Shown: positions 4,452 to 32,936 of the stretch, piece after piece
Layout: every line of letters starts with the position of its first letter
Numbering within the stretch: the stretch's first letter is position 1
Origin: Eledone cirrhosa
Taxonomy: Eukaryota
Direction: 5' to 3'
Assembly: GCA_964016885.1 (NCBI GenBank)
Contig: OZ024740.1
Coordinates: 339,512,001-339,576,000 of the forward strand
Length of the DNA: 64,000 nt
Program-made: the position numbers and the translations under genes
The notes under the pieces: generated by a model
Seen by the model: the letters and a program-made list of their open reading frames with translations, nothing else
Databases searched by the model: none
Told to the model about the DNA's origin: nothing

Positions 4452-4487
<36 letters not shown>

Positions 4488-4490
4488 TAT

Positions 4491-5168
4491 TCTAAAATAA
4501 ATAGAGAATTTTTTGTCTGAACTTACTTCAATTGAAACGCTCAGTGTTAAATATATTTGTAACATAATATTTTCTCAGCAGATAGACATAGGCCATAGAA
4601 AATCAATTTTTCAGTCAAAATATCATTGACAGATAATTCCATGATCTTTTCCTCTCTGCAGTAATTCCTCCTTTATTTTACTTTTATTCATATTGTCATA
4701 TGTACCAATCCATTAATTAATTTTTTTTATTTAAATTCAAATTTCTTTCATTGTCCATTTATTTTATAGTTTTCTATAAAATAAATATCTTATAGAAAAC
4801 ATTCTATAAAATAAAATTAAAAAACAACACTATCTTGGGTTAGCTTTCTAACAATATATATATTCTATTGATTCTTTCCTGTTTCAAAAGCCATGCTGAA
4901 AAGTAGCTACCTCCACCAATAATATTTCAAACAACCAGAATTGTAGTCTTCTAAATTTTATTACTATTGATGCAACTATGCTTATTGTTAGCAAACTCAA
5001 CCAAACAGTAATAAAATCTGCAGAAATTACACTACAACTATAATAAATACTAGCCAAGATAATTTTCTCCTGTTTTCAGTGATATTCTCTGGCAATGGCC
5101 GACTTTTAAATGATCCATTTGTGTTTATTGATTAAATTTTCAATTGCAGTAATATTTCTTCAGTCTGC
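4491..5168. repeat. Local duplication, copy 1 (copy 2 at 13527-14183)
   Basis: Direct repeat of non-TE-looking sequence with a nearly identical centre and diverged edges. Confidence 0.9.
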
Positions 5169-5401
5169 CGAACACACACACACATGCACACACGTGCAGA
5201 CACACATATATATATGTAATTTTGTGTAGGTAGGGAATAGCTTTTCTTTCAAACATGTTATATCAAAGACACAACTGTGTTAAAGTTTTATGTTTTTTTT
5301 AAAAGATATTTCATATTTCCTTATTAGTTCTTCATGTTTGGTTTGGAAAAATAGTATTTCTAAATCTATTAGCCTGTGATTGTTTTGAGGCCTTCACAGA
5401 C

Positions 5402-6720
5402 TCATCATTATCATCATTGTTTAATGTCCATTTTCCATTATAGCATGGGTTAGACGGATCTTCTAAATAAATGTGTTGGTAGTAATAAAGTGTTGTTCAC
5501 ACAGTGGCAATTGGAGGCAAAGAATGGTAGGAGTACTGGCAAAATTTTCAGAACCAGATTTAAAAAATATGTTCAGTGGTTACATTTACTTGTATAATTT
5601 GGTATGGCTTGGTTTCTACAGCTGGATGCCTTTCATAGCACCAACCACTTTACATAATATACTAGAAGCATGGCTTCTATGGCTGGGCGCCCATCCTAAC
5701 ACCAACCACTTTACAGCATGTACTGGGAGCTTTTTGTAATAACTCCGGCTCTACCAACTTTCTGGGTGGATTGGGTGTTTTTCACTGTGGCACCAGCACT
5801 ACGACTTTACAGGGTGTACTGGATGATTTTCTCATGACACCAGCACAACCTCATTTCGACACTAGCGTACTCAGTGTTTTTGGTCTGGCTGGGGAAGCAC
5901 TAATGGGGGTTGGGACTGGTTGTGGGTCTTTACTGACATTGCACAGCAGGAGTGGGGATTGTTTTATATAGAAATGGCCTTGAAGCAAATGTATGGTGTC
6001 TGACATCATGGAGTGTGCCTGGCTTCCTTTGATGGCTTATATGCTTGTGTGAATGAGGCATTATATACTACATGCAGTGAGGAGGTGTCAGATCATTTTG
6101 TAGTGTAAGTAGTGGGGGAAGGTAGGAAGGAGGAGCAAATGTTTGGCCATAGGTTCAGCTTGCTAAAAGGGAGAAAAAGTGAGAGCTATCAGCATCAGAC
6201 AGTACAGTGAAGGAGCAGCCACCTTTGGGTGGGAGTCAAGTACATGAGCAGGGTGGGGAGACTAGGTGGAGGTGATCAAATTTGCAAGTGGAAAAGACTA
6301 GGTGAGGGGAATAGTTAGTGAGGAAGAGGATAATGGGAGGGGCAGCTTAAGTGTTACATCTTTTTACCTTTCATCCACCCTGTAAGTCTTCTGTAGTATG
6401 TCATATAACCAACCATCTTGATCCTGTTATAGATCATCTCTTCTGTGAGGTCCAACTTTTTAAGGTCAGCCTTTACGTCACCATCCCATATTTTCCCATC
6501 ACATTACCTATGCTGTTTTCTATTCAACCTCCTACATCATACAAACAACCAGCTTGTAGCTACCACTGTCACCTTTCTTCCCATACCATCCTCTCACTAT
6601 TTTCCTCTTCACACTCAAATCATACTCTCTCCTCTTTTGCACATCACACCACTTCTAATCACCCACTATGTTACATTTTCATTGATGATATGGAAAATGC
6701 TTAGAGTGGAAAGATCTCTT
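5402..6720 (-). mobile_element. Old, decayed RTE-type 3' fragment
   Basis: Tail motif at 5402-5460 and gctggatgcc blocks. The minus strand near 6430-6600 gives RTE C-terminal-like residues (WYG..., VKADLKKLDLTEEMI). Confidence 0.55.
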
Positions 6721-7062
6721 TAGCTTTGTAACAGACAAGACAATCTCATTGATTTAACTGTCATAATAAAATGTGTCCAGATAAAATGTAAACAATGTTA
6801 TGTAGAGGACACTTTAGTCATCTCAAAGACTTGACAATTTTTTAGTGCTGGTATTTTGATAATATGTACCCAGTACAATTTCTAAAGAGGTTGGGATTAC
6901 GAAACATCTAAACCCTGTAAAACTTGGAATATGCAAGTAAGGCATGCTTCTCTGACATTTTCTAAAAGAGCAGTAACACCAAATATGAACTGACTTGGAA
7001 TGTAACAACACATCCAACCCATGCTAGCATGGAAGGCAAACCTAAAAAGATAATGATGTTGA

Positions 7063-7111
<49 letters not shown>

Positions 7112-7196
7112 TGCATACAGACACACAAACATATATAAATATGCATACATATATATATGTATGTATATACATATGTATGTATGTACATACATATGT

Positions 7197-7538
7197 ATGT
7201 ATATACATATATGTAAGTATCATCATCATTTTACGTACATTTTTCCCTGCTTGCAAGGGTGGGACGGGAATTGATTCTGGCTTGATTTCTACAGCTGGAT
7301 GCCCTTCCTAACACCAACCTCATTTACAGTTATAGCTGGGTGCTTTTTTTCCATGGCACTCCCATGACCACTTTGCAGTGGAATGATAGGAACCCCAGTC
7401 CCTATCATCTCATTTCTACAGCTGAGTAAACTGGAGCAATGTGAAATAAAGTGTCTTGCTCAAGGAAACAACACATCACCCCGTCTGAGAATTGAACTCA
7501 CAACCTTTCGATTGCAAGGCCAATGCTCTAACCACTAA

Positions 7539-7580
<42 letters not shown>

Positions 7581-7596
7581 CTAAGAACATAGATTT
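7197..7596. repeat. Left copy of ~400-bp direct repeat (putative target-site duplication)
   Basis: By eye identical to 11998-12401 except for 4 nt of (TA)n length. Runs atgtatatacatatatgtaag...actaagaacatagattt. Confidence 0.9.
7219..7539 (-). mobile_element. tRNA-derived SINE with RTE-type 3' tail (inside left repeat)
   Basis: Minus strand: cttagtggttagagc (A box, clipped), gagttcaattctc (B box), central ccttgagcaagacacttt block, tail ggtgttaggaagggcatccagc...(gat)n. Confidence 0.85.
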
Positions 7597-7788
7597 GAAA
7601 GTCAACAGTTGACATAATCTGGTAATCTTGTATCAGTAATGACGGTAATATATATATATATATGTGTGTGTGTGCGTGTAAGTGAGTAGAGTAGCGTGTG
7701 TGTGTGTTTGTTGTGTGTGTGAGTGTTGCTGTGTGCACGCATATGTATGCGTGTGTGTGTATGTCGTACGTATAAGTGTCAATAAGTA

Positions 7789-7824
<36 letters not shown>

Positions 7825-8125
7825 GCGGGGACATAGAAATAATCGGGCTGGATGCCCGATCGCGCAGTTAAACCACTGGGAGTGAAGAACCCCTAGCCCA
7901 TGTCAGGGTATTCTTCTAGGAGAAGGCATCTCAGGAAACTGGGTTAACTCCGATATAAAACCTGCGGCTCAGTAGTTACCGATGATGTTGATCTTTTCTT
8001 CTTTTCGGGTTATAGCTACTGTCGCTCAGAGAGTGGGATTGGTTCAGTGCACAGTCTTTCCTCACTTTAAAAATATTCGTCACGCACAGGCATTGCACGA
8101 GTGCATTAATAATTATTAATAGTGT

Positions 8126-8160
<35 letters not shown>

Positions 8161-8165
8161 TATTA

Positions 8166-8205
<40 letters not shown>

Positions 8206-11200
8206 CCCCAATTCAATGATGTTCCAGAACAATGTAAACGAGATAATTGCCAATTTGGGTTCTGGAACAAAAAAGATCATTGGCAATAAGGGCAGGGGCC
8301 CCAAGTTATCACAACCTGGGCCCGCCCGTCATCGTGCCATTGTAATAGAGCCAAACAGGGCATTTAGTCTTGGCTGCTGGAACGTACGGACGCTGCTTGA
8401 CAGGGATTCTTTGGAGCGTCCTGAACGAAGGACCGCTCTTGTTGCGAAGGAGCTTCGACGTTACGATCTTGACATCGTGGCTTTGTCTGAGACGAGGTTA
8501 GCTGGGGATGGTCATCTTACGGAATTTTGTGGAGAATATACATTCTTCTGGAAAGGAAGAGATGAAGGAACCAGAAGAGAGGCTGGGGTAGGATTTGCTG
8601 TTAAGACTGTACTGGTGAATAAATTGGAAGAATTCCCAGTGGGGATTAGTGAGCGTCTTATGTCCATGAGAGTTCCGCTGGACAAGGGAAGATATGCTAC
8701 CCTGGTGAGTGTGTATGCTCCAACTATGAATTCTGTCGATGAAGAAAAACTGTCCTTTTACCATGCCTTGAAAGGTGTTTTAAGAAATATCCCTCAGGCA
8801 GACAAAGTCATCGTGCTTGGTGACTTTAATGCTAGAGTGGGTAGGGATTTTAACACATGGAATGTAATCGGAAGGCATGGGGTGGGAAAGTGTAACAGCA
8901 ATGGTATGCTCTTGCTGCAGATGTGTGAGGAGCTGGATCTGTGTGTTACCAGCACCATGTTCCAACAAAAGAACAAATTCAAGACCACATGGATGCATCC
9001 TGCATCTAAGGAATGGCATCTTTTGGACTACGTCCTAGTCAGGATGCGTGACAGACAGGATGTGCGGTGTGTTCGTGTTCTTCGTGGAGCTGAGTGCTGG
9101 ACGGACCACCGCCTGGTACGCGCAAAAGTGAATCTAATCACCAAACGTAAAATCCGGGCTCCTGGTGTTACCCTGCCCAAAAGATTGAATGCTGCTCGTC
9201 TTAAGGATAAAAATGTGAAGAGGACATTGGAAGAAGAGATGCAGGCTGCAGATCTTGGTGAGGATTGGCCGACCCTTAAAAAGTCGGTTTATGATGTAGG
9301 CAGACGTGTTCTGGGATTGGTGCAGAGAAAACATCAGGACTGGTTTGATGAGAAAGATGTGCATATAGATGACTTGTTGGCTGATAAGAGGCGCGCTCTG
9401 TCACGCTACTTGACGGCAAGACCACAGGAGAGGAATACGTTGCATGAGGAGCTCAGGGATGTAAAATCACGTGTTAGGCGGAGTCTTTCTCAGATGAAGG
9501 ATCAGTGGTGGAGTGAGAAGGCTGGTGAGGTACAAACTGCGTCTGATTGCAATAACACAAAGCTGTTGTACAGTCTCTTGCGTGAGGTTTATGGACCGTC
9601 TTCTTCTCTGGTGACACCGATTCGCAGCAGGGATGGCAAAGAACTTCTTCGTGACTCACAGGGAATTCTACGAAGGTGGCGGGAGCACTTTGATGATCTT
9701 TTGAATCAGCCGTCTGTCGTCGGTGAAGATTTCCTCAATCTCATTCCGGAAAGTCCTGTGAAAGTAGCTCTCGCAGAGCCTCCGACACTTGTGGAGGTTG
9801 CAGTGGCTATTTCGAAGCTGAACAGTGGAAGATCTCCAGGTATGGATGGCATACATGCTGAGCTCCTACAATATGGTGGTGAGAGACTCCTGCAACATCT
9901 TCACTCTCTGTTTGGAGGGATATGGGCTAATGAATCCGTGCCTGAGGACTGGAGAGATGCAGTAATGGTGGTCTTGTACAAGGGAAAGGGTAACAGGAAT
10001 GATTGTGGGAACTACAGAGGTATATCATTGCTTTCTGTCGTGGGGAAAGTTTTATGTAGGGTGCTTCTGGACCGTCTGCTGACACACATTGCAGATTGTG
10101 TCCTTCCTGAAAGTCAATCTGGTTTTCGTGTTGGACGCGGCACTACTGATATGATCTTCTCAGCTAGACAGCTCCAGGAGAAGTGCATTGAACAGGGCTT
10201 GGATCTGTATCAGGTTTTTGTCGATCTGACAAAGGCTTTCGATACTGTCAACAGAGATGCATTATGGAAGGTTCTCCAGAAACTTGGTTGCCCTGATAAG
10301 TTCCTTGCTTTAGTTAGGTCTTTCCATGACGACATGAAGGCTTGGGTTAATGTCGGAGGTAACATGTCGGAGCCTATCTCAGTAAAAAATGGAGTGAAAC
10401 AGGGGGATATTCCAGCACCGACCCTGTTTGCCATATACTTTGCAATGGTTTTCTGTATTGCATTCAGGAATTGCGAGCATGGTGTTTACATCCGATATCG
10501 GACCTCAGGCAGCATATTTAACATCAGGCGCTTTGCTGCGAAGACAAAGGTATTTACATCAGTCATAAGAGACCTCTTGTATGCAGATGATTGCGATCTT
10601 GTAGCGCACACAGAGAGTGATATGCAGCACATTTTGAATGTATTTTCTGACGCTTGCACTGCCCTGGGTTTGACTGTCAGTCTCAAGAAAACCGTCGTCA
10701 TGTACCAACCTGCACCTGGTAGGCAGTACACTGAACCAAACATCTATGTGTATGGCAAACGACTTGGAGTGGTTGATCAGTTTGTCTACCTGGGAAGCAC
10801 TGTCAATCGATACGGCAACCTTGACAGTGAAATCTCACTTAGGATTAGGAAAGCAAGTGATGCTTTCGGAAAGCTAGAAAGGCGACTCTGGGGTCGGCGA
10901 GACATATGCAGGAGGACAAAGGTAAGGGTGTACAGGGCATGTGTACTCTCTTGTCTTCTTTATGCCTGCGAGACCTGGGTCACATATCGACGCCACCTTA
11001 AGCAATTGGAGCGTTTCCATCAGATGTGTCTCAGACGGATACATGGCGTTCGCTGGAGGGACCACATCAGTGATGTCGAGATTTTGGAAAGCTCTATGTG
11101 TGACAGTATAGAAGCTCTTGTGCTTAAGCAGCGACTCCGTTGGAGTGGTCACCTTGCCAGGATGAAGGATTCTAGAATACCAAAACAACTCTTCTATGGA

Positions 11201-11769
11201 GAGTTGGTTAAAGGAAAACGACCGCCACATAAACCAAAAAAGAGGTATAAGGATTCCTTGAAGGCCTCTCTGAAAGACGCTAACATCTCTGCTGATACAT
11301 GGGAAAATATTGCTGCTGATCGTAATAAATGGAGAAAGACTGTATATGAGGGAAAAGTTGCCTTTGAGGCATCTCGAATCGCACACGAGAAAGTAAAGCG
11401 GGACGTGAGGAAGGGTATTGCTGTTGCACTTCCAGACGGCGAGGGTCCTCCTATGTTTCTGACATGCAGCGTCTGTGCGAGACTCTGCCTAAGCAAAGCT
11501 GGACTCGAAAGTCATCTTCGCAGTCATAAAGTAAGACCAGTGGTTGACTACCAGGCTGCTGTTGGAGATGCTACTCATCATGCTTGCCAAACATGTGGTA
11601 GAGAATGTAAATCAGCAGGAGGACTCAAGCGACATGCAAAAGTACACGAACTCCAACCACAGCCGACTATTCCCAGTAAATGTTTTGGTTGCCGACTCTG
11701 TGCAAGACATTTTGGATCATTGGCTGGGCTAAAAAGCCACATTCGATCGCAGCACTGTTAGTTGCTATC

Positions 11770-11807
<38 letters not shown>

Positions 11808-11886
11808 GCTTATGTGCGTGCGTGTGTGTGTATATATATATGAATATGTATATTATTATTGTTGTTGTCGTTATTATTATTATTGC

Positions 11887-11958
<72 letters not shown>

Positions 11959-11997
11959 TGTGCAATGGCCATACTCGATAACGAGGGGGCAGCCATC
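7597..11997 (+). mobile_element. Near full-length, apparently intact RTE-clade non-LTR retrotransposon (family A)
   Basis: Single long EN-RT ORF with ~620-nt 5' UTR and ~235-nt 3' UTR. It ends in a small hairpin (ctcg-ataa-cgag) plus gcagccatc. The boundaries are defined by flanking ~400-bp direct repeats. Confidence 0.93.
8216..11761 (+). CDS. RTE LINE polyprotein: AP-like endonuclease + reverse transcriptase + 3 C2H2 zinc fingers
   Basis: Uninterrupted 1181-aa ORF. EN motifs WNVRTL, SETR, SVYAP, GDFNA, LDY, TDH. RT motifs NYRGISLL, QSGFR, DLTKAFD, GVKQG, YADD, YLGS. RTE C-terminal LRWSGHLARM...RIPKQLFYGEL. Fingers CSVC..HLRSH, CQTC..HAKVH, CRLC..HIRSQH. Confidence 0.96.
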   Translation: MMFQNNVNEIIANLGSGTKKIIGNKGRGPKLSQPGPARHRAIVIEPNRAFSLGCWNVRTLLDRDSLERPERRTALVAKELRRYDLDIVALSETRLAGDGHLTEFCGEYTFFWKGRDEGTRREAGVGFAVKTVLVNKLEEFPVGISERLMSMRVPLDKGRYATLVSVYAPTMNSVDEEKLSFYHALKGVLRNIPQADKVIVLGDFNARVGRDFNTWNVIGRHGVGKCNSNGMLLLQMCEELDLCVTSTMFQQKNKFKTTWMHPASKEWHLLDYVLVRMRDRQDVRCVRVLRGAECWTDHRLVRAKVNLITKRKIRAPGVTLPKRLNAARLKDKNVKRTLEEEMQAADLGEDWPTLKKSVYDVGRRVLGLVQRKHQDWFDEKDVHIDDLLADKRRALSRYLTARPQERNTLHEELRDVKSRVRRSLSQMKDQWWSEKAGEVQTASDCNNTKLLYSLLREVYGPSSSLVTPIRSRDGKELLRDSQGILRRWREHFDDLLNQPSVVGEDFLNLIPESPVKVALAEPPTLVEVAVAISKLNSGRSPGMDGIHAELLQYGGERLLQHLHSLFGGIWANESVPEDWRDAVMVVLYKGKGNRNDCGNYRGISLLSVVGKVLCRVLLDRLLTHIADCVLPESQSGFRVGRGTTDMIFSARQLQEKCIEQGLDLYQVFVDLTKAFDTVNRDALWKVLQKLGCPDKFLALVRSFHDDMKAWVNVGGNMSEPISVKNGVKQGDIPAPTLFAIYFAMVFCIAFRNCEHGVYIRYRTSGSIFNIRRFAAKTKVFTSVIRDLLYADDCDLVAHTESDMQHILNVFSDACTALGLTVSLKKTVVMYQPAPGRQYTEPNIYVYGKRLGVVDQFVYLGSTVNRYGNLDSEISLRIRKASDAFGKLERRLWGRRDICRRTKVRVYRACVLSCLLYACETWVTYRRHLKQLERFHQMCLRRIHGVRWRDHISDVEILESSMCDSIEALVLKQRLRWSGHLARMKDSRIPKQLFYGELVKGKRPPHKPKKRYKDSLKASLKDANISADTWENIAADRNKWRKTVYEGKVAFEASRIAHEKVKRDVRKGIAVALPDGEGPPMFLTCSVCARLCLSKAGLESHLRSHKVRPVVDYQAAVGDATHHACQTCGRECKSAGGLKRHAKVHELQPQPTIPSKCFGCRLCARHFGSLAGLKSHIRSQHC

Positions 11998-12339
11998 ATG
12001 TATATACATATATGTAAGTATCATCATCATTTTACGTACATTTTTCCCTGCTTGCAAGGGTGGGACGGGAATTGATTCTGGCTTGATTTCTACAGCTGGA
12101 TGCCCTTCCTAACACCAACCTCATTTACAGTTATAGCTGGGTGCTTTTTTTCCATGGCACTCCCATGACCACTTTGCAGTGGAATGATAGGAACCCCAGT
12201 CCCTATCATCTCATTTCTACAGCTGAGTAAACTGGAGCAATGTGAAATAAAGTGTCTTGCTCAAGGAAACAACACATCACCCCGTCTGAGAATTGAACTC
12301 ACAACCTTTCGATTGCAAGGCCAATGCTCTAACCACTAA

Positions 12340-12385
<46 letters not shown>

Positions 12386-12401
12386 CTAAGAACATAGATT
12401 T
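11998..12401. repeat. Right copy of ~400-bp direct repeat (putative target-site duplication)
   Basis: Matches 7197-7596. It continues seamlessly into the older RTE fragment (agattt-tacatgtggccgg), whereas the left copy is cut at agattt. Confidence 0.9.
12020..12340 (-). mobile_element. tRNA-derived SINE (inside right repeat)
   Basis: Identical to 7219-7539. Confidence 0.85.
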
Positions 12402-13435
12402 TACATGTGGCCGGTGTTTTGGGGCAATAAGTAGCAGCAAGTGCCCACAAAATACTAGCTCTTTCAACTGCGCAGAGGGTTCTATAGAAATAGTGGACAG
12501 CTTCCGTTACCTGGGTGACAAAATCAGCAGTGGGGGAGGGTGCTCTGAAAGTACAGTAGCTAGAGTCAGAACTGGGTGGAAAAAATTAAAGGGTTCTCCC
12601 TAAAAATGAAAGGCAGGTTGTACGATGCCTGCATACGAACAGCAATGTTGCATGGCAGTGAGACCTGGGCATTGTGTGCAGAGGATATACGCAGACTAGA
12701 GAGAAACGAAGCTTGCATGCTCCGCTGGATGTGTAATAGTAATATACGTGAACGACAAAGCATAAACGAACTAAGGAAAAAATTAGAAATAAGAGGGATC
12801 AGATGTTGTTTACTAGAGAGAAGGCTACGTTGGTATGGTCACATGATGCGCATGAAGGACGATAGCTGTATAACAAAGTGCAGGGTAATAAAGATAGACG
12901 GTAGCCACGGAATAGGCAGACCCAGAAAAACCTGGGACGAGCTGATAAACTCCGACCTCACACAGTTACACCTCACCAAGACAATGTCACTGGACCGAGA
13001 CCTTTGGCGGTACTCAGTAATAGAGAAGACCCGCCTTACCTAAATACAAAGTAAAACCTACTACAGTCAGTAGGCATCTCTAACAAAATACACCCCCGTC
13101 CCACCACCCCCACCCCATCCGCACCACCCCCTCTATGTAAAGTTATGTTGGTGCCACATCATCCAGGCCAAAACAAATGAGATCGTGTAGGTGTCACGAC
13201 AAAAAAACACACAGTCCACGCTGTAATGTGGCCGTGTAGGCAACACGGTAAAAACCTCCCAGACCCACACTGTAAATGTGGTTGGTGTTAGGAAGGGCAT
13301 CCAACTGTAGAAAACCTGCCAGACAGTCCTATGCGAGCAAGACAATCACTCTTGCCTCAAGTGGGAAAACCCCCGTCCAAACCCATGCAAGCGTGGAACA
13401 CGGACGTTAAACGATGATGATGATGATGATGATGA
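12384..13435 (+). mobile_element. 5'-truncated RTE family B copy
   Basis: ORF fragment ...MLHGSETWAL...RLRWYGHMMRM...GRPRKTW, 3' UTR with ggaagggcatcca motif and (gat)n tail. Confidence 0.9.
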
Positions 13436-13526
13436 TATATATATAAATATTGTTAGAAATGAAATCATAACTATTATTTTCCTGGCTTAGGTAGCTGCTA
13501 TTCATGTTCTATCTATTGTGTTTTAG

Positions 13527-14183
13527 TCTAAAATAAATTGAAAATTATTGTCAGAACTAACTCCACTTGAAACCCTAGGTGTTAAATAAATTTCAATTGT
13601 AATATCATTTTCTCAGCAGATCGACATAGGCCATAGAAAATCAATTTTTCAGTCAAAATATCATTGACAGACAATTCCTTGATCTTTTCCTCTCTGCAGT
13701 AATTCCTCCTCCTCTTCTTATGCTTTACTTTTATTCATTTTGTCATATTTACCAATCCATTAATTAATTTTTTATTTAAATCAAATATTTTATTATCCAT
13801 TTATTTTATAGTTTTCTATAAAATAAAATTAAAAAAACAACACTATCTTGGGTTAGCTTTCTAACAATATATATATATTCTATTGATTCTTTGCTGTTTC
13901 AAAAGCCATGCTGAAAAGTAGCTACCTCCACCAATAATATTTCAAACAACCAGAATTGTAGTCTTCTAAATTTTATTACTATTGGTGCAACTATGCTTAT
14001 TGTTAGCAAACTCAACCAAACAGTAATAAAAGCTGCAGAAATTACACTACAACTATAATAAATACTAGCCAAGATAATTTTCTCCTGTTTTCAGTGATAT
14101 TCTCTGGCAATGGCCGACTTTTAAATGATCCATTTCTGTTTATTGATTTAATGCTCCATTACAGTAAAATTTCTTCAGTTTGG
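13527..14183. repeat. Local duplication, copy 2
   Basis: See 4491-5168. Confidence 0.9.
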
Positions 14184-14232
14184 CTAATACAGATTCTATT
14201 GTGAAATGTCTTTATTACACAAGCTGTGTATG

Positions 14233-27479: not shown

Positions 27480-27900
27480 AATTGATCTATCTTATGATCT
27501 ATAGTATATCTAGAAGTCTGAAATCTCTCTTCTGGCCTGTGATTTATCTTATGACCTGATCTATCTTATAACATGCTCTATCTTATGACTTACGATCTCT
27601 CTTATGACCTATGATCTACCTTATGTTTTGTGATCTAGCTTATCACCTGTGGGCTATTTTATGACTTGCAATTTGTCTTATGACTTACATTTTGTCTAAT
27701 GACTTATGATCTATCTTAATACCTGTAATCTGTCTCATGTCCTGTGATCTATTCTATAGTTAGCAATCTATCTTATTTATAGACTTTCTTATGATCTCTT
27801 ATGACATGATCTATATAATGGCCAGTGATCTGTCTTACGACTTGTTTTCTATCTTATAACCTTTTTGTTATGCTCTATCTTATAACCTCTGACCTATGAT
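27480..27900. repeat. Degenerate ~19-20 bp minisatellite (tgatctatcttatgacc-like)
   Basis: Repeated gatctatcttat motifs. Confidence 0.75.
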
Positions 27901-28249: not shown

Positions 28250-28660
28250 CCACTTAGACTAGCACTACTACTGTACAGGGTGTAACGGGTGTATTTTATC
28301 ATCATCACCTGCACTACTACTTCACAAAGTATAATAGGTGCATTTTATCGTGGCTCCAGCCAACCCAGTATTTTTATTTCACAGACTGTACTGGGTGTAT
28401 TTTATCAAGTCTCTAATACCACAACTTTAGAGAATGTACTGGGTCCTTTTTATCATAACTCCGGTACTACAACTTCACAGACTGTACTTCGTGCATTTTA
28501 TCATGGCACCAGTACTACCATTTCACATAGTGTATTGGGTGCATTTAATCATAACTCCAGTACTACAACTTCACAGACTGTACTTGGTACATTTCATCAT
28601 GGCACTGGCACTACTGTTTCACTTAGTGTACTGAGTGCATTTTATCATGGCACTTGTAGA
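28250..28660. repeat. 48-bp minisatellite (~8 units, 96-bp higher-order pattern)
   Basis: acagactgtact recurs at 28381, 28477 and 28573. The translation shows 16-aa periodicity. Confidence 0.85.
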
Positions 28661-32486: not shown

Positions 32487-32628
32487 TTGTGAGAGATAGA
32501 CATAAATATATATGATATCAATGCTGCATCATGTTGTGAGAGATAGACATAAATATATATGATATCAATGCTGCATCATGTTGTGAGAGATAGACATAAA
32601 TATATATGATATCAATGCTGCATCATGT
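32487..32628. repeat. Perfect 47-bp tandem repeat x3
   Basis: gagagatagac at 32491, 32538 and 32585. Confidence 0.95.
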
Positions 32629-32936
32629 TTTAAATGATCAGAATAGTAAGTCTAGAGAGAAAAAAGCTAAGGAAAATAGAATATCCGTCTGAATAGTTGA
32701 GTTTCATACGATTCTGGTAACATATTGGTCATTTCATACCAGATAAATTTTAAGCTAAACTGTAGCACTCACCTTGTCAATATGTACATGCCAATATTCC
32801 TCAAGAATAGTCTTAGTTGACTTTGGTGTCATTTTTGAAATGACAATTGCTTTTGTAAGGTAACAGGTCAGTATGAGGGATACTGAACTCATTAATGATG
32901 GCTTGAAATACCTTTTCCTTCACTCTTATATATATA

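What the first reader, a model, noticed from the sequence alone, without database searches (positions are those of the whole stretch)
7197..12401. Intact RTE LINE flanked by a ~400-bp direct repeat: giant target-site duplication
Seen: 7197-7596 and 11998-12401 are identical except for 4 nt of (TA)n and abut the element exactly. The repeat is a composite of microsatellite, SINE, (TA)n and the first ~18 nt of an unrelated RTE-B fragment. Only the right copy continues into that fragment, so the repeat is pre-existing host sequence rather than an LTR or two independent SINE insertions. Known: LINE TSDs are usually <20 bp, though C. elegans RTE-1 was described with TSDs of roughly 200 bp (from memory). 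Inference: second-strand cleavage occurred ~400 bp from the first nick, so this LINE duplicates sizeable host segments on insertion. Recombination between the repeats could excise it precisely as a circle.
Basis: partly seen in the sequence, partly recalled or inferred. Interest (0 to 1): 0.75.

Follow-up and report, generated by a model that had tools for sequence, protein, structure and literature searches.

The report
LINE with rare 400-bp target duplication
A young jumping gene (a LINE) sits exactly between two matching 400-base copies of host DNA that were likely made when it inserted; only 3 of 87 sister copies examined show a clear duplication over 100 bases, so this is likely the rare long tail of a known process, and the copies also differ mostly by A-to-G changes that likely record RNA editing.

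Summary
The repeat is real: 7197-7596 equals 11998-12401 except (TA)20 versus (TA)22, with no substitution. It is host DNA. None of 89 sister loci carries it, the left copy continues a host microsatellite, and only the right copy continues an older RT fragment. It is very likely a 398-400 bp target-site duplication (TSD). The element has a whole ORF but lacks the first ~955 of 5,360 bases, so it is not full-length. Long TSDs are a minority in this family. It inserts at ATGT/ATAT microsatellites, and the median exact junction overlap is 14 nt (71 copies). Six of 87 copies have resolved TSDs of 47-401 bp, three of them over 100 bp. Many copies sit in long microsatellites where TSD length cannot be read. 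TSDs over 100 bp are published for L1. The empty allele and excision circles could not be tested. A side result is stronger: 111 of 180 variable ORF sites among 90 young copies are sense-strand A>G (10 are T>C), with 5'-G depletion, likely ADAR edits copied into DNA. The scan already noted long LINE TSDs in other genomes and ADAR-type scars elsewhere in this genome.

The parts
7065..7212 (.). Host AT/ATGT microsatellite; the first nick lies inside it, at the ATGT that starts the repeat (7197)
   Evidence: all 88 copies with a 3' end run into ATGT (44), ATAT (38) or ATCA (6)
7197..7596 (+). Left copy of the target-site duplication (398-400 bp)
   Evidence: last 2 nt are microhomology with the element
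7222..7539 (-). SINE-like dispersed repeat inside the left copy; tRNA-like head read by eye at about 7490-7538 on the minus strand
7578..7596 (+). First 19 nt of an older RT fragment, cut off by the insertion
7597..11997 (+). Young RTE-type LINE, 5'-truncated at about position 955 of 5,360; no poly(A) tail
8216..11761 (+). Single uninterrupted ORF, 1,181 aa: APE endonuclease, reverse transcriptase (YADD at 789), three C2H2 fingers; 9 differences from the family majority, all A>G (6 change the residue)
11998..12401 (+). Right copy of the target-site duplication (402-404 bp, two extra TA units)
12383..13450 (+). Older RT fragment of another family, continuous only behind the right copy
   Evidence: 77-85% to three other window copies

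Best explanation
The 400-bp repeat is likely a true target-site duplication, made during one recent insertion of a 5'-truncated RTE-type LINE, and is likely a rare long outcome for a family whose measurable duplications are mostly short. Shown: both junctions are exact, the repeat starts on the family's ATGT/ATAT target, it is host DNA, and its end shares 2 nt with the truncated element. Inferred: the element's endonuclease nicked the bottom strand in the microsatellite at 7197 and primed reverse transcription, which stopped ~955 nt short of the 5' end. The cDNA was then joined through the 2-nt match to a top-strand end ~400 bp downstream. That end came either from a distant second nick followed by unwinding and fill-in (my preference, about 55:45) or from break-induced copying from the reciprocal end. 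The two (TA)n tracts later slipped or were mis-read by 4 nt.
For: No substitution between the two copies, against 6-7% divergence among the window's other SINE copies. Host continuity on both outer sides. The repeat begins with ATGT, as do 44 of 88 3' junctions. No sister locus holds the repeat at above 94% or next to its element (which examined 73 of the 89 loci). Six of 87 sister copies with both ends show the same geometry, starting at the 3' junction and ending at the 5' junction: 47, 51, 54, 163, 184 and 387/401 bp. All 7 long cases are 5'-truncated and 5 of 7 have 1-2 nt microhomology. The left flank has one near-identical place among the 40 of 229 candidates scored. Precedent: TSDs over 100 bp in up to 10% of L1 inserts in HeLa cells and in most inserts in NER-deficient cells (PMC5223499, passages).
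Against: No empty allele and no spanning read were seen. Sampling is not random (best 40 hits of three searches, about 1,000 candidates each for the short queries). 26 of 72 loci have more than 100 nt of microsatellite on both sides, where a long TSD cannot be read, so 3 of 87 is a lower bound. Flanks were 1.2-7 kb (10 loci extended by 10 kb on each side), so larger duplications could be missed. In a null of mismatched flank pairs, 8 of 150 shared 10 or more non-repeat bases, up to 549, through common repeats. The link with truncation is not significant (0 of 18 full-length versus 7 of 70, p = 0.34).
Confidence: 0.85

Rival explanations
1. The family routinely makes long TSDs, hidden in most copies because they lie in long microsatellites.
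For: 4 of 88 copies have resolved TSDs over 100 bp; 26 of 72 loci cannot be resolved; several have exact overlaps of 54-68 nt in mixed microsatellites.
Against: 50 of 71 copies have an exact overlap of 20 nt or less, median 14; 21 of 72 have a microsatellite of 40 nt or less on one side and no shared unique flank.
Confidence: 0.12
2. A tandem duplication of the 400 bp existed first, or arose later by unequal exchange, and the LINE lies at its junction.
For: Nested and tandem contexts exist in the family: L037 lies in a ~4.8-kb tandem array and L062 between two 98%-identical short elements.
Against: It needs a blunt insertion exactly at the junction with no short TSD of its own, and none is seen. 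The unit starts on the family's target motif, and six other loci have the same geometry.
Confidence: 0.06
3. Assembly artefact from joining filled and empty haplotypes or from a mis-join at the repeat.
For: The window is full of microsatellites, and the two (TA)n tracts differ by 4 nt.
Against: Base-exact junctions with a 2-nt microhomology, a start on the target motif, and repeated geometry at other loci.
Confidence: 0.05
4. Side result, rival to ADAR editing: the sense-strand A>G excess comes from G:T misincorporation during second-strand DNA synthesis, or from mosaic assembly of near-identical copies.
For: New A>G changes are rare per copy (45 singletons in 73 copies), a rate that polymerase error could give (my estimate). 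Octopus hyper-edited sites are reported to have a weak 3'-G preference (20-25%) and to favour 3' A (PMC5625713, passages), whereas here 3' G is 56 of 111 and 3' A is depleted (19 versus 32 expected).
Against: A>G 111 versus T>C 10 sites (p = 5e-22); 5' G 15 of 111 versus 35 expected (p = 2e-5), the shared ADAR mark in PMC5625713. Neighbouring A pairs change together in the same copies (752/753, 1424/1425). The pattern held in a separate set of 16 loci (31 new A>G sites, 1 T>C). Assembly errors should not respect the element's strand.
Confidence: 0.25

Closest known systems
Long TSDs of human L1 insertions (PMC5223499, passages; PMC4245944, passages; bioRxiv 10.1101/2024.12.14.628481, passages)
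   Same: Duplications of hundreds of bp that start at the endonuclease site, in a minority of inserts (10% or less in HeLa); explained by a distal second nick or by break-induced replication; microhomology at truncated 5' junctions.
   Different: Those are engineered inserts in cultured cells; these are natural, assembled RTE-type copies in an invertebrate genome, primed at AT microsatellites and without a poly(A) tail.
RTE-clade LINEs (PMC6007223, PMC4245944, PMC1291365, PMC2887409; passages)
   Same: Single APE-RT ORF, microsatellite-like 3' end that matches the TSD start, typical TSD 10-12 bp.
   Different: A tail of 47-400 bp TSDs. The survey in PMC6007223 searched only 10-49 bp and so could not see it. 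The ~200-bp repeat of the first C. elegans RTE-1 copy is recalled only.
RTE-2_OV of Octopus vulgaris (PMC9115989, passages)
   Same: Single ORF with EN, RT and C2H2 finger; a microsatellite starts at the ORF end.
   Different: ORF 1,109 aa versus 1,181 aa. One of two published primers matches the window with 3 mismatches and the other not at all, so this is a related but different family. 'Target site' does not occur in its main text.
HERV-K (HML-2) long TSDs (PMC5488345, abstract and outline)
   Same: Germline insertions with 111- and 250-bp TSDs; the 250-bp one was shown against the pre-integration site.
   Different: Integrase-based LTR element.

Membership tests
Target-site duplication | Direct repeat abutting both element ends | tested here: met
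Target-site duplication | Sequence is host-derived and not part of other element copies | tested here: met
   (73 of 89 loci examined directly); searches show other junctions in the remaining 16
Target-site duplication | Starts at the element's preferred nick or priming site | tested here: met
   ATGT start; 82 of 88 junctions begin ATGT or ATAT
Target-site duplication | Single copy in the empty allele | tested here: inconclusive
   no second haplotype among the scored hits; public contigs are cut at the junction repeats
RTE-clade LINE | One long ORF with APE endonuclease and RT, no large ORF1 | tested here: met
   (window copy; the missing 955 nt were not scanned for ORFs)
RTE-clade LINE | 3' end in short AT-rich repeats, no poly(A) | tested here: met
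   the 3' UTR (236 nt here, ~300 nt longer in a sub-variant) is longer than the very short UTRs described
RTE-clade LINE | RT groups with named RTE references in a tree | not tested
   one search gave 1,786 relatives, and none of the 120 listed carries a clade name; no reference set was available
LTR retroelement (repeat as LTR) | Same terminal repeat on sister copies | tested here: not met
ADAR A-to-I edits fixed in DNA | Strand-specific A>G excess | tested here: met
   111 versus 10 T>C sites
ADAR A-to-I edits fixed in DNA | 5' G depletion | tested here: met
   15 of 111, 35 expected
ADAR A-to-I edits fixed in DNA | 3' neighbour as reported for octopus hyper-edited sites (A favoured, weak G) | tested here: not met
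   3' G 56 of 111, 3' A 19 versus PMC5625713; the pattern fits the G-preferring group instead
ADAR A-to-I edits fixed in DNA | Inosine at these sites in the element's RNA | not testable with these tools
   no run on record as RNA was returned

The most novel reading that the evidence does not exclude
This is a currently expanding, coding-competent LINE family whose main source of new heritable variation is ADAR editing of its own RNA. About 60% of variable ORF sites are site-recurrent A>G, two thirds of them recoding, and they are written into the germline at retrotransposition and passed on by daughter source copies. The same family duplicates up to 400 bp of host DNA in a few percent of insertions.
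Probability: 0.6. Interest if true: 0.7.

Novelty: new member of a known kind. Interest (0 to 1): 0.4.

Why it matters
The TSD alone matters modestly. It shows that the long-TSD tail known from L1 cell assays also occurs in natural RTE-type copies (at least 3 of 87 over 100 bp), that surveys capped at 49 bp miss it, and that such insertions copy small host elements. The side result matters more. If A-to-I editing supplies most new mutations in an active LINE, RNA editing shapes a retrotransposon's protein evolution, genomic copies record germline editing, and divergence-based ages of such copies are inflated.

Tried and rejected
Empty allele: public contigs were laid twice. The flank 5800-7034 is present in X5-X7 with 0-3 differences, but both junctions fall in skipped repeats, so there is no verdict. 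A genome search with the left flank found no second haplotype among 40 of 229 candidates scored. False long TSDs rejected: L037 (tandem array of ~4.8 kb), L062 (two short elements with about 10 substitutions), L014 and L064 (26-31 mismatches, not abutting), and L072, L004, L036, L069 (low identity or far from the junctions). A second-nick motif at the far ends of the 7 long TSDs: no common motif seen by eye. Link between long TSDs and an ORF allele: position 2711 G in 5 of 7 versus 27 of 80 (p = 0.095) and position 737 G in 2 of 5 versus 3 of 64 (p = 0.04); four sites were tested after the fact, so this is not accepted. Fixed A>G bias against older copies: 8 of 25 differences versus 4 T>C, weak. 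Rfam on the window's 5' region and on a full-length 5' UTR: only microsatellite-driven hits below gathering scores, no ribozyme. NCBIfam added nothing. One search scores exact overlaps only and so misses the window's own TSD; one search is the indel-tolerant test. L062 was dropped because BLAST had picked a nested older copy; it is included correctly. L060 and L074 were dropped from TSD counts because their 3' end is interrupted.

Full report
Observation. The two repeats match exactly over 7197-7579/11998-12380 and 7540-7596/12345-12401, and differ only by two TA units. Between them lies one ORF of 1,181 aa (8216-11761) with an APE endonuclease, a reverse transcriptase and three C2H2 fingers, with the expected motifs present. 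The repeat starts inside a host microsatellite (7065-7212). Its 318-bp SINE-like core is 100% identical between the two copies but only 93-94% identical to the 4 other long copies in the window. Its last 19 nt align with four other RT fragments in the window, and only the right copy continues into that fragment. The genome is 3.0 Gb; that it is an octopus is my inference from the repeat landscape and the wording of earlier scan notes, and I did not check it.

The family. Three searches of the own genome (40 scored of 3,142, 1,052 and 1,037 candidates) gave 89 other near-identical copies, fetched as 10-kb stretches (one of 8.4 kb), ten of them extended by 10 kb on each side. The full element is 5,360 bp; 18 of 88 copies reach its 5' end, 8 of 90 have 5' inversions, and the window copy starts at about position 955. 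It is therefore 5'-truncated with a whole ORF, and whether it keeps a promoter is unknown. The junction has a 2-nt microhomology. All 88 copies with a readable 3' end pass directly into ATGT (44), ATAT (38) or ATCA (6). Two copies had no 3' end in the stretch and were left out.

TSD lengths. Among 71 sister copies, the exact suffix-prefix overlap at the junctions has a median of 14 nt: 50 are 20 nt or less, 13 are 21-40, 7 are 41-100 and 1 is longer. In pure repeats these values are ambiguous, and 26 of 72 loci have more than 100 nt of microsatellite on both sides. Duplications resolved by non-repeat sequence and abutting both junctions occur in 6 of 87 sister copies: L075 47, L017 51, L105 54, L104 163, L032 184 and L095 387/401 bp. 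L095 has 2 substitutions and microsatellite slips, and its far end lies in a repeat. All seven long cases, the window included, are 5'-truncated (p = 0.34), and five have 1-2 nt of microhomology. Look-alikes caused by nested elements or tandem arrays were rejected because they carry many mismatches or do not abut. The null shows that such shared repeats also occur between unrelated loci (8 of 150 pairs).

Mechanism. Shown: geometry, target motif, host origin and microhomology. Inferred from established target-primed reverse transcription: a first nick in the microsatellite, premature 5' joining, and a top-strand end 400 bp away. PMC5223499 (passages) reports TSDs over 100 bp in at most 10% of HeLa L1 inserts and in 57-91% of inserts in NER-deficient lines, and proposes a distal unrelated nick. 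bioRxiv 10.1101/2024.12.14.628481 (passages; its supplements are closed and may hold more cases) treats 1-10 kb tandem duplications as large TSDs made by break-induced replication. Sequence cannot separate the two routes. PMC4245944 and PMC6007223 (passages) give the RTE peak as 10-12 bp; the latter searched only 10-49 bp and found such TSDs in 30 of 53 C. elegans RTE-1 copies. PMC5488345 (abstract and outline) gives 111- and 250-bp germline TSDs for HERV-K. PMC1291365, PMC2887409 and PMC1852546 (passages) report 10-20 bp RTE TSDs. The 200-bp RTE-1 repeat is recalled; searches and the look-up did not confirm it. Precise loss of the element by recombination between the repeats is plausible from general knowledge, but a circle is untested.

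What could not be shown. No empty allele or spanning read: the public contigs cover the left flank but are cut at the junction repeats, and no second haplotype appeared.

Side result. The window copy differs from the family majority at 9 ORF positions, all A>G on the sense strand, 6 of them recoding. Over 90 young copies, polarised with older nested copies where possible, 111 of 180 variable sites are A>G, against 14 G>A, 14 C>T, 10 T>C and 31 transversions (p = 5e-22 for A>G versus T>C). 5' G is depleted (15 versus 35 expected) and 3' G is enriched (56 versus 30); 74 of the 111 recode. The last 16 loci repeat the pattern on their own (31 new A>G sites, 1 T>C). Shared sites are mostly incompatible with one tree (129 of 144 overlapping pairs; independence would give 143 +/- 8), which fits recurrent hotspots but also gene conversion or mosaic assembly. 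Illumina-type contigs show A at several positions where all sampled copies have G, but the fixed bias against older copies is weak (8 of 25). Against ADAR: PMC5625713 (passages) reports 5'-G depletion in all species but a weak 3'-G preference for octopus hyper-edited sites, no RNA was examined, and polymerase error in second-strand synthesis is not excluded. PMC9068888 (passages) suggests editing as a defence against transposons. Three literature searches (listings only, apart from PMC5625713) showed no paper on edits fixed in LINE copies, but most subscription papers are not searched. I found this pattern before looking at earlier notes. The scan has five notes on hyper-edited RTE copies in this genome; what this adds is low-level, site-recurrent change across intact, recently inserted copies.

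Verdict. A real and clean long TSD, a new member of a known kind, and a minority outcome in its family as far as can be measured. The scan noted similar single cases in other genomes. Interest 0.4, of which the editing signature supplies a good part.

Noticed in passing
window 8216-11761 and loci L001-L039, L060-L109: Sense-strand A>G changes make up 111 of 180 variable ORF sites among 90 young copies, with 5'-G depletion and 3'-G enrichment; likely ADAR edits copied into DNA.
   Followed up: partly
L095 (G000:C2:71169466-71179465), L032, L104: Further long TSDs of 387/401, 184 and 163 bp on 5'-truncated copies.
   Followed up: yes
L001, L002, L009, L010, L023, L039, L092, L107 (also L106): 5' inversions of twin-priming type in 8 of 90 copies; PMC4245944 saw most 5' inversions with human L1.
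   Followed up: no
L061, L067, L073, L076, L078, L081-L083, L087-L089, L093, L100-L103, L105-L108, L036: A sub-variant whose 3' UTR is about 270-350 nt longer, with the same terminal motif.
   Followed up: no
L062, L031, L068, L089, L098 flanks: A ~600-bp short element with an RTE-like 3' end lies in the same ATGT microsatellites, often next to this LINE; two copies 98% alike flank L062.
   Followed up: partly
L060 and L074: Both 3' UTRs are interrupted at the same repeat tract by near-identical sequence of another element: either a chimeric source copy or a repeated insertion site.
   Followed up: no
L037 (G000:C1:309580428-309610427): A copy inserted in a tandem array of ~4.8-kb units that are 95-97% identical.
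   Followed up: partly
window 4481-5176 and 13517-14191: A direct repeat of ~700 bp, 87% overall and 95.5% over 378 bp, on either side of the locus; no other copy in the window.
   Followed up: no
window 27523-27752, 28378-28648, 32487-32629: Tandem arrays with 19-, 48- and 47-bp units.
   Followed up: no
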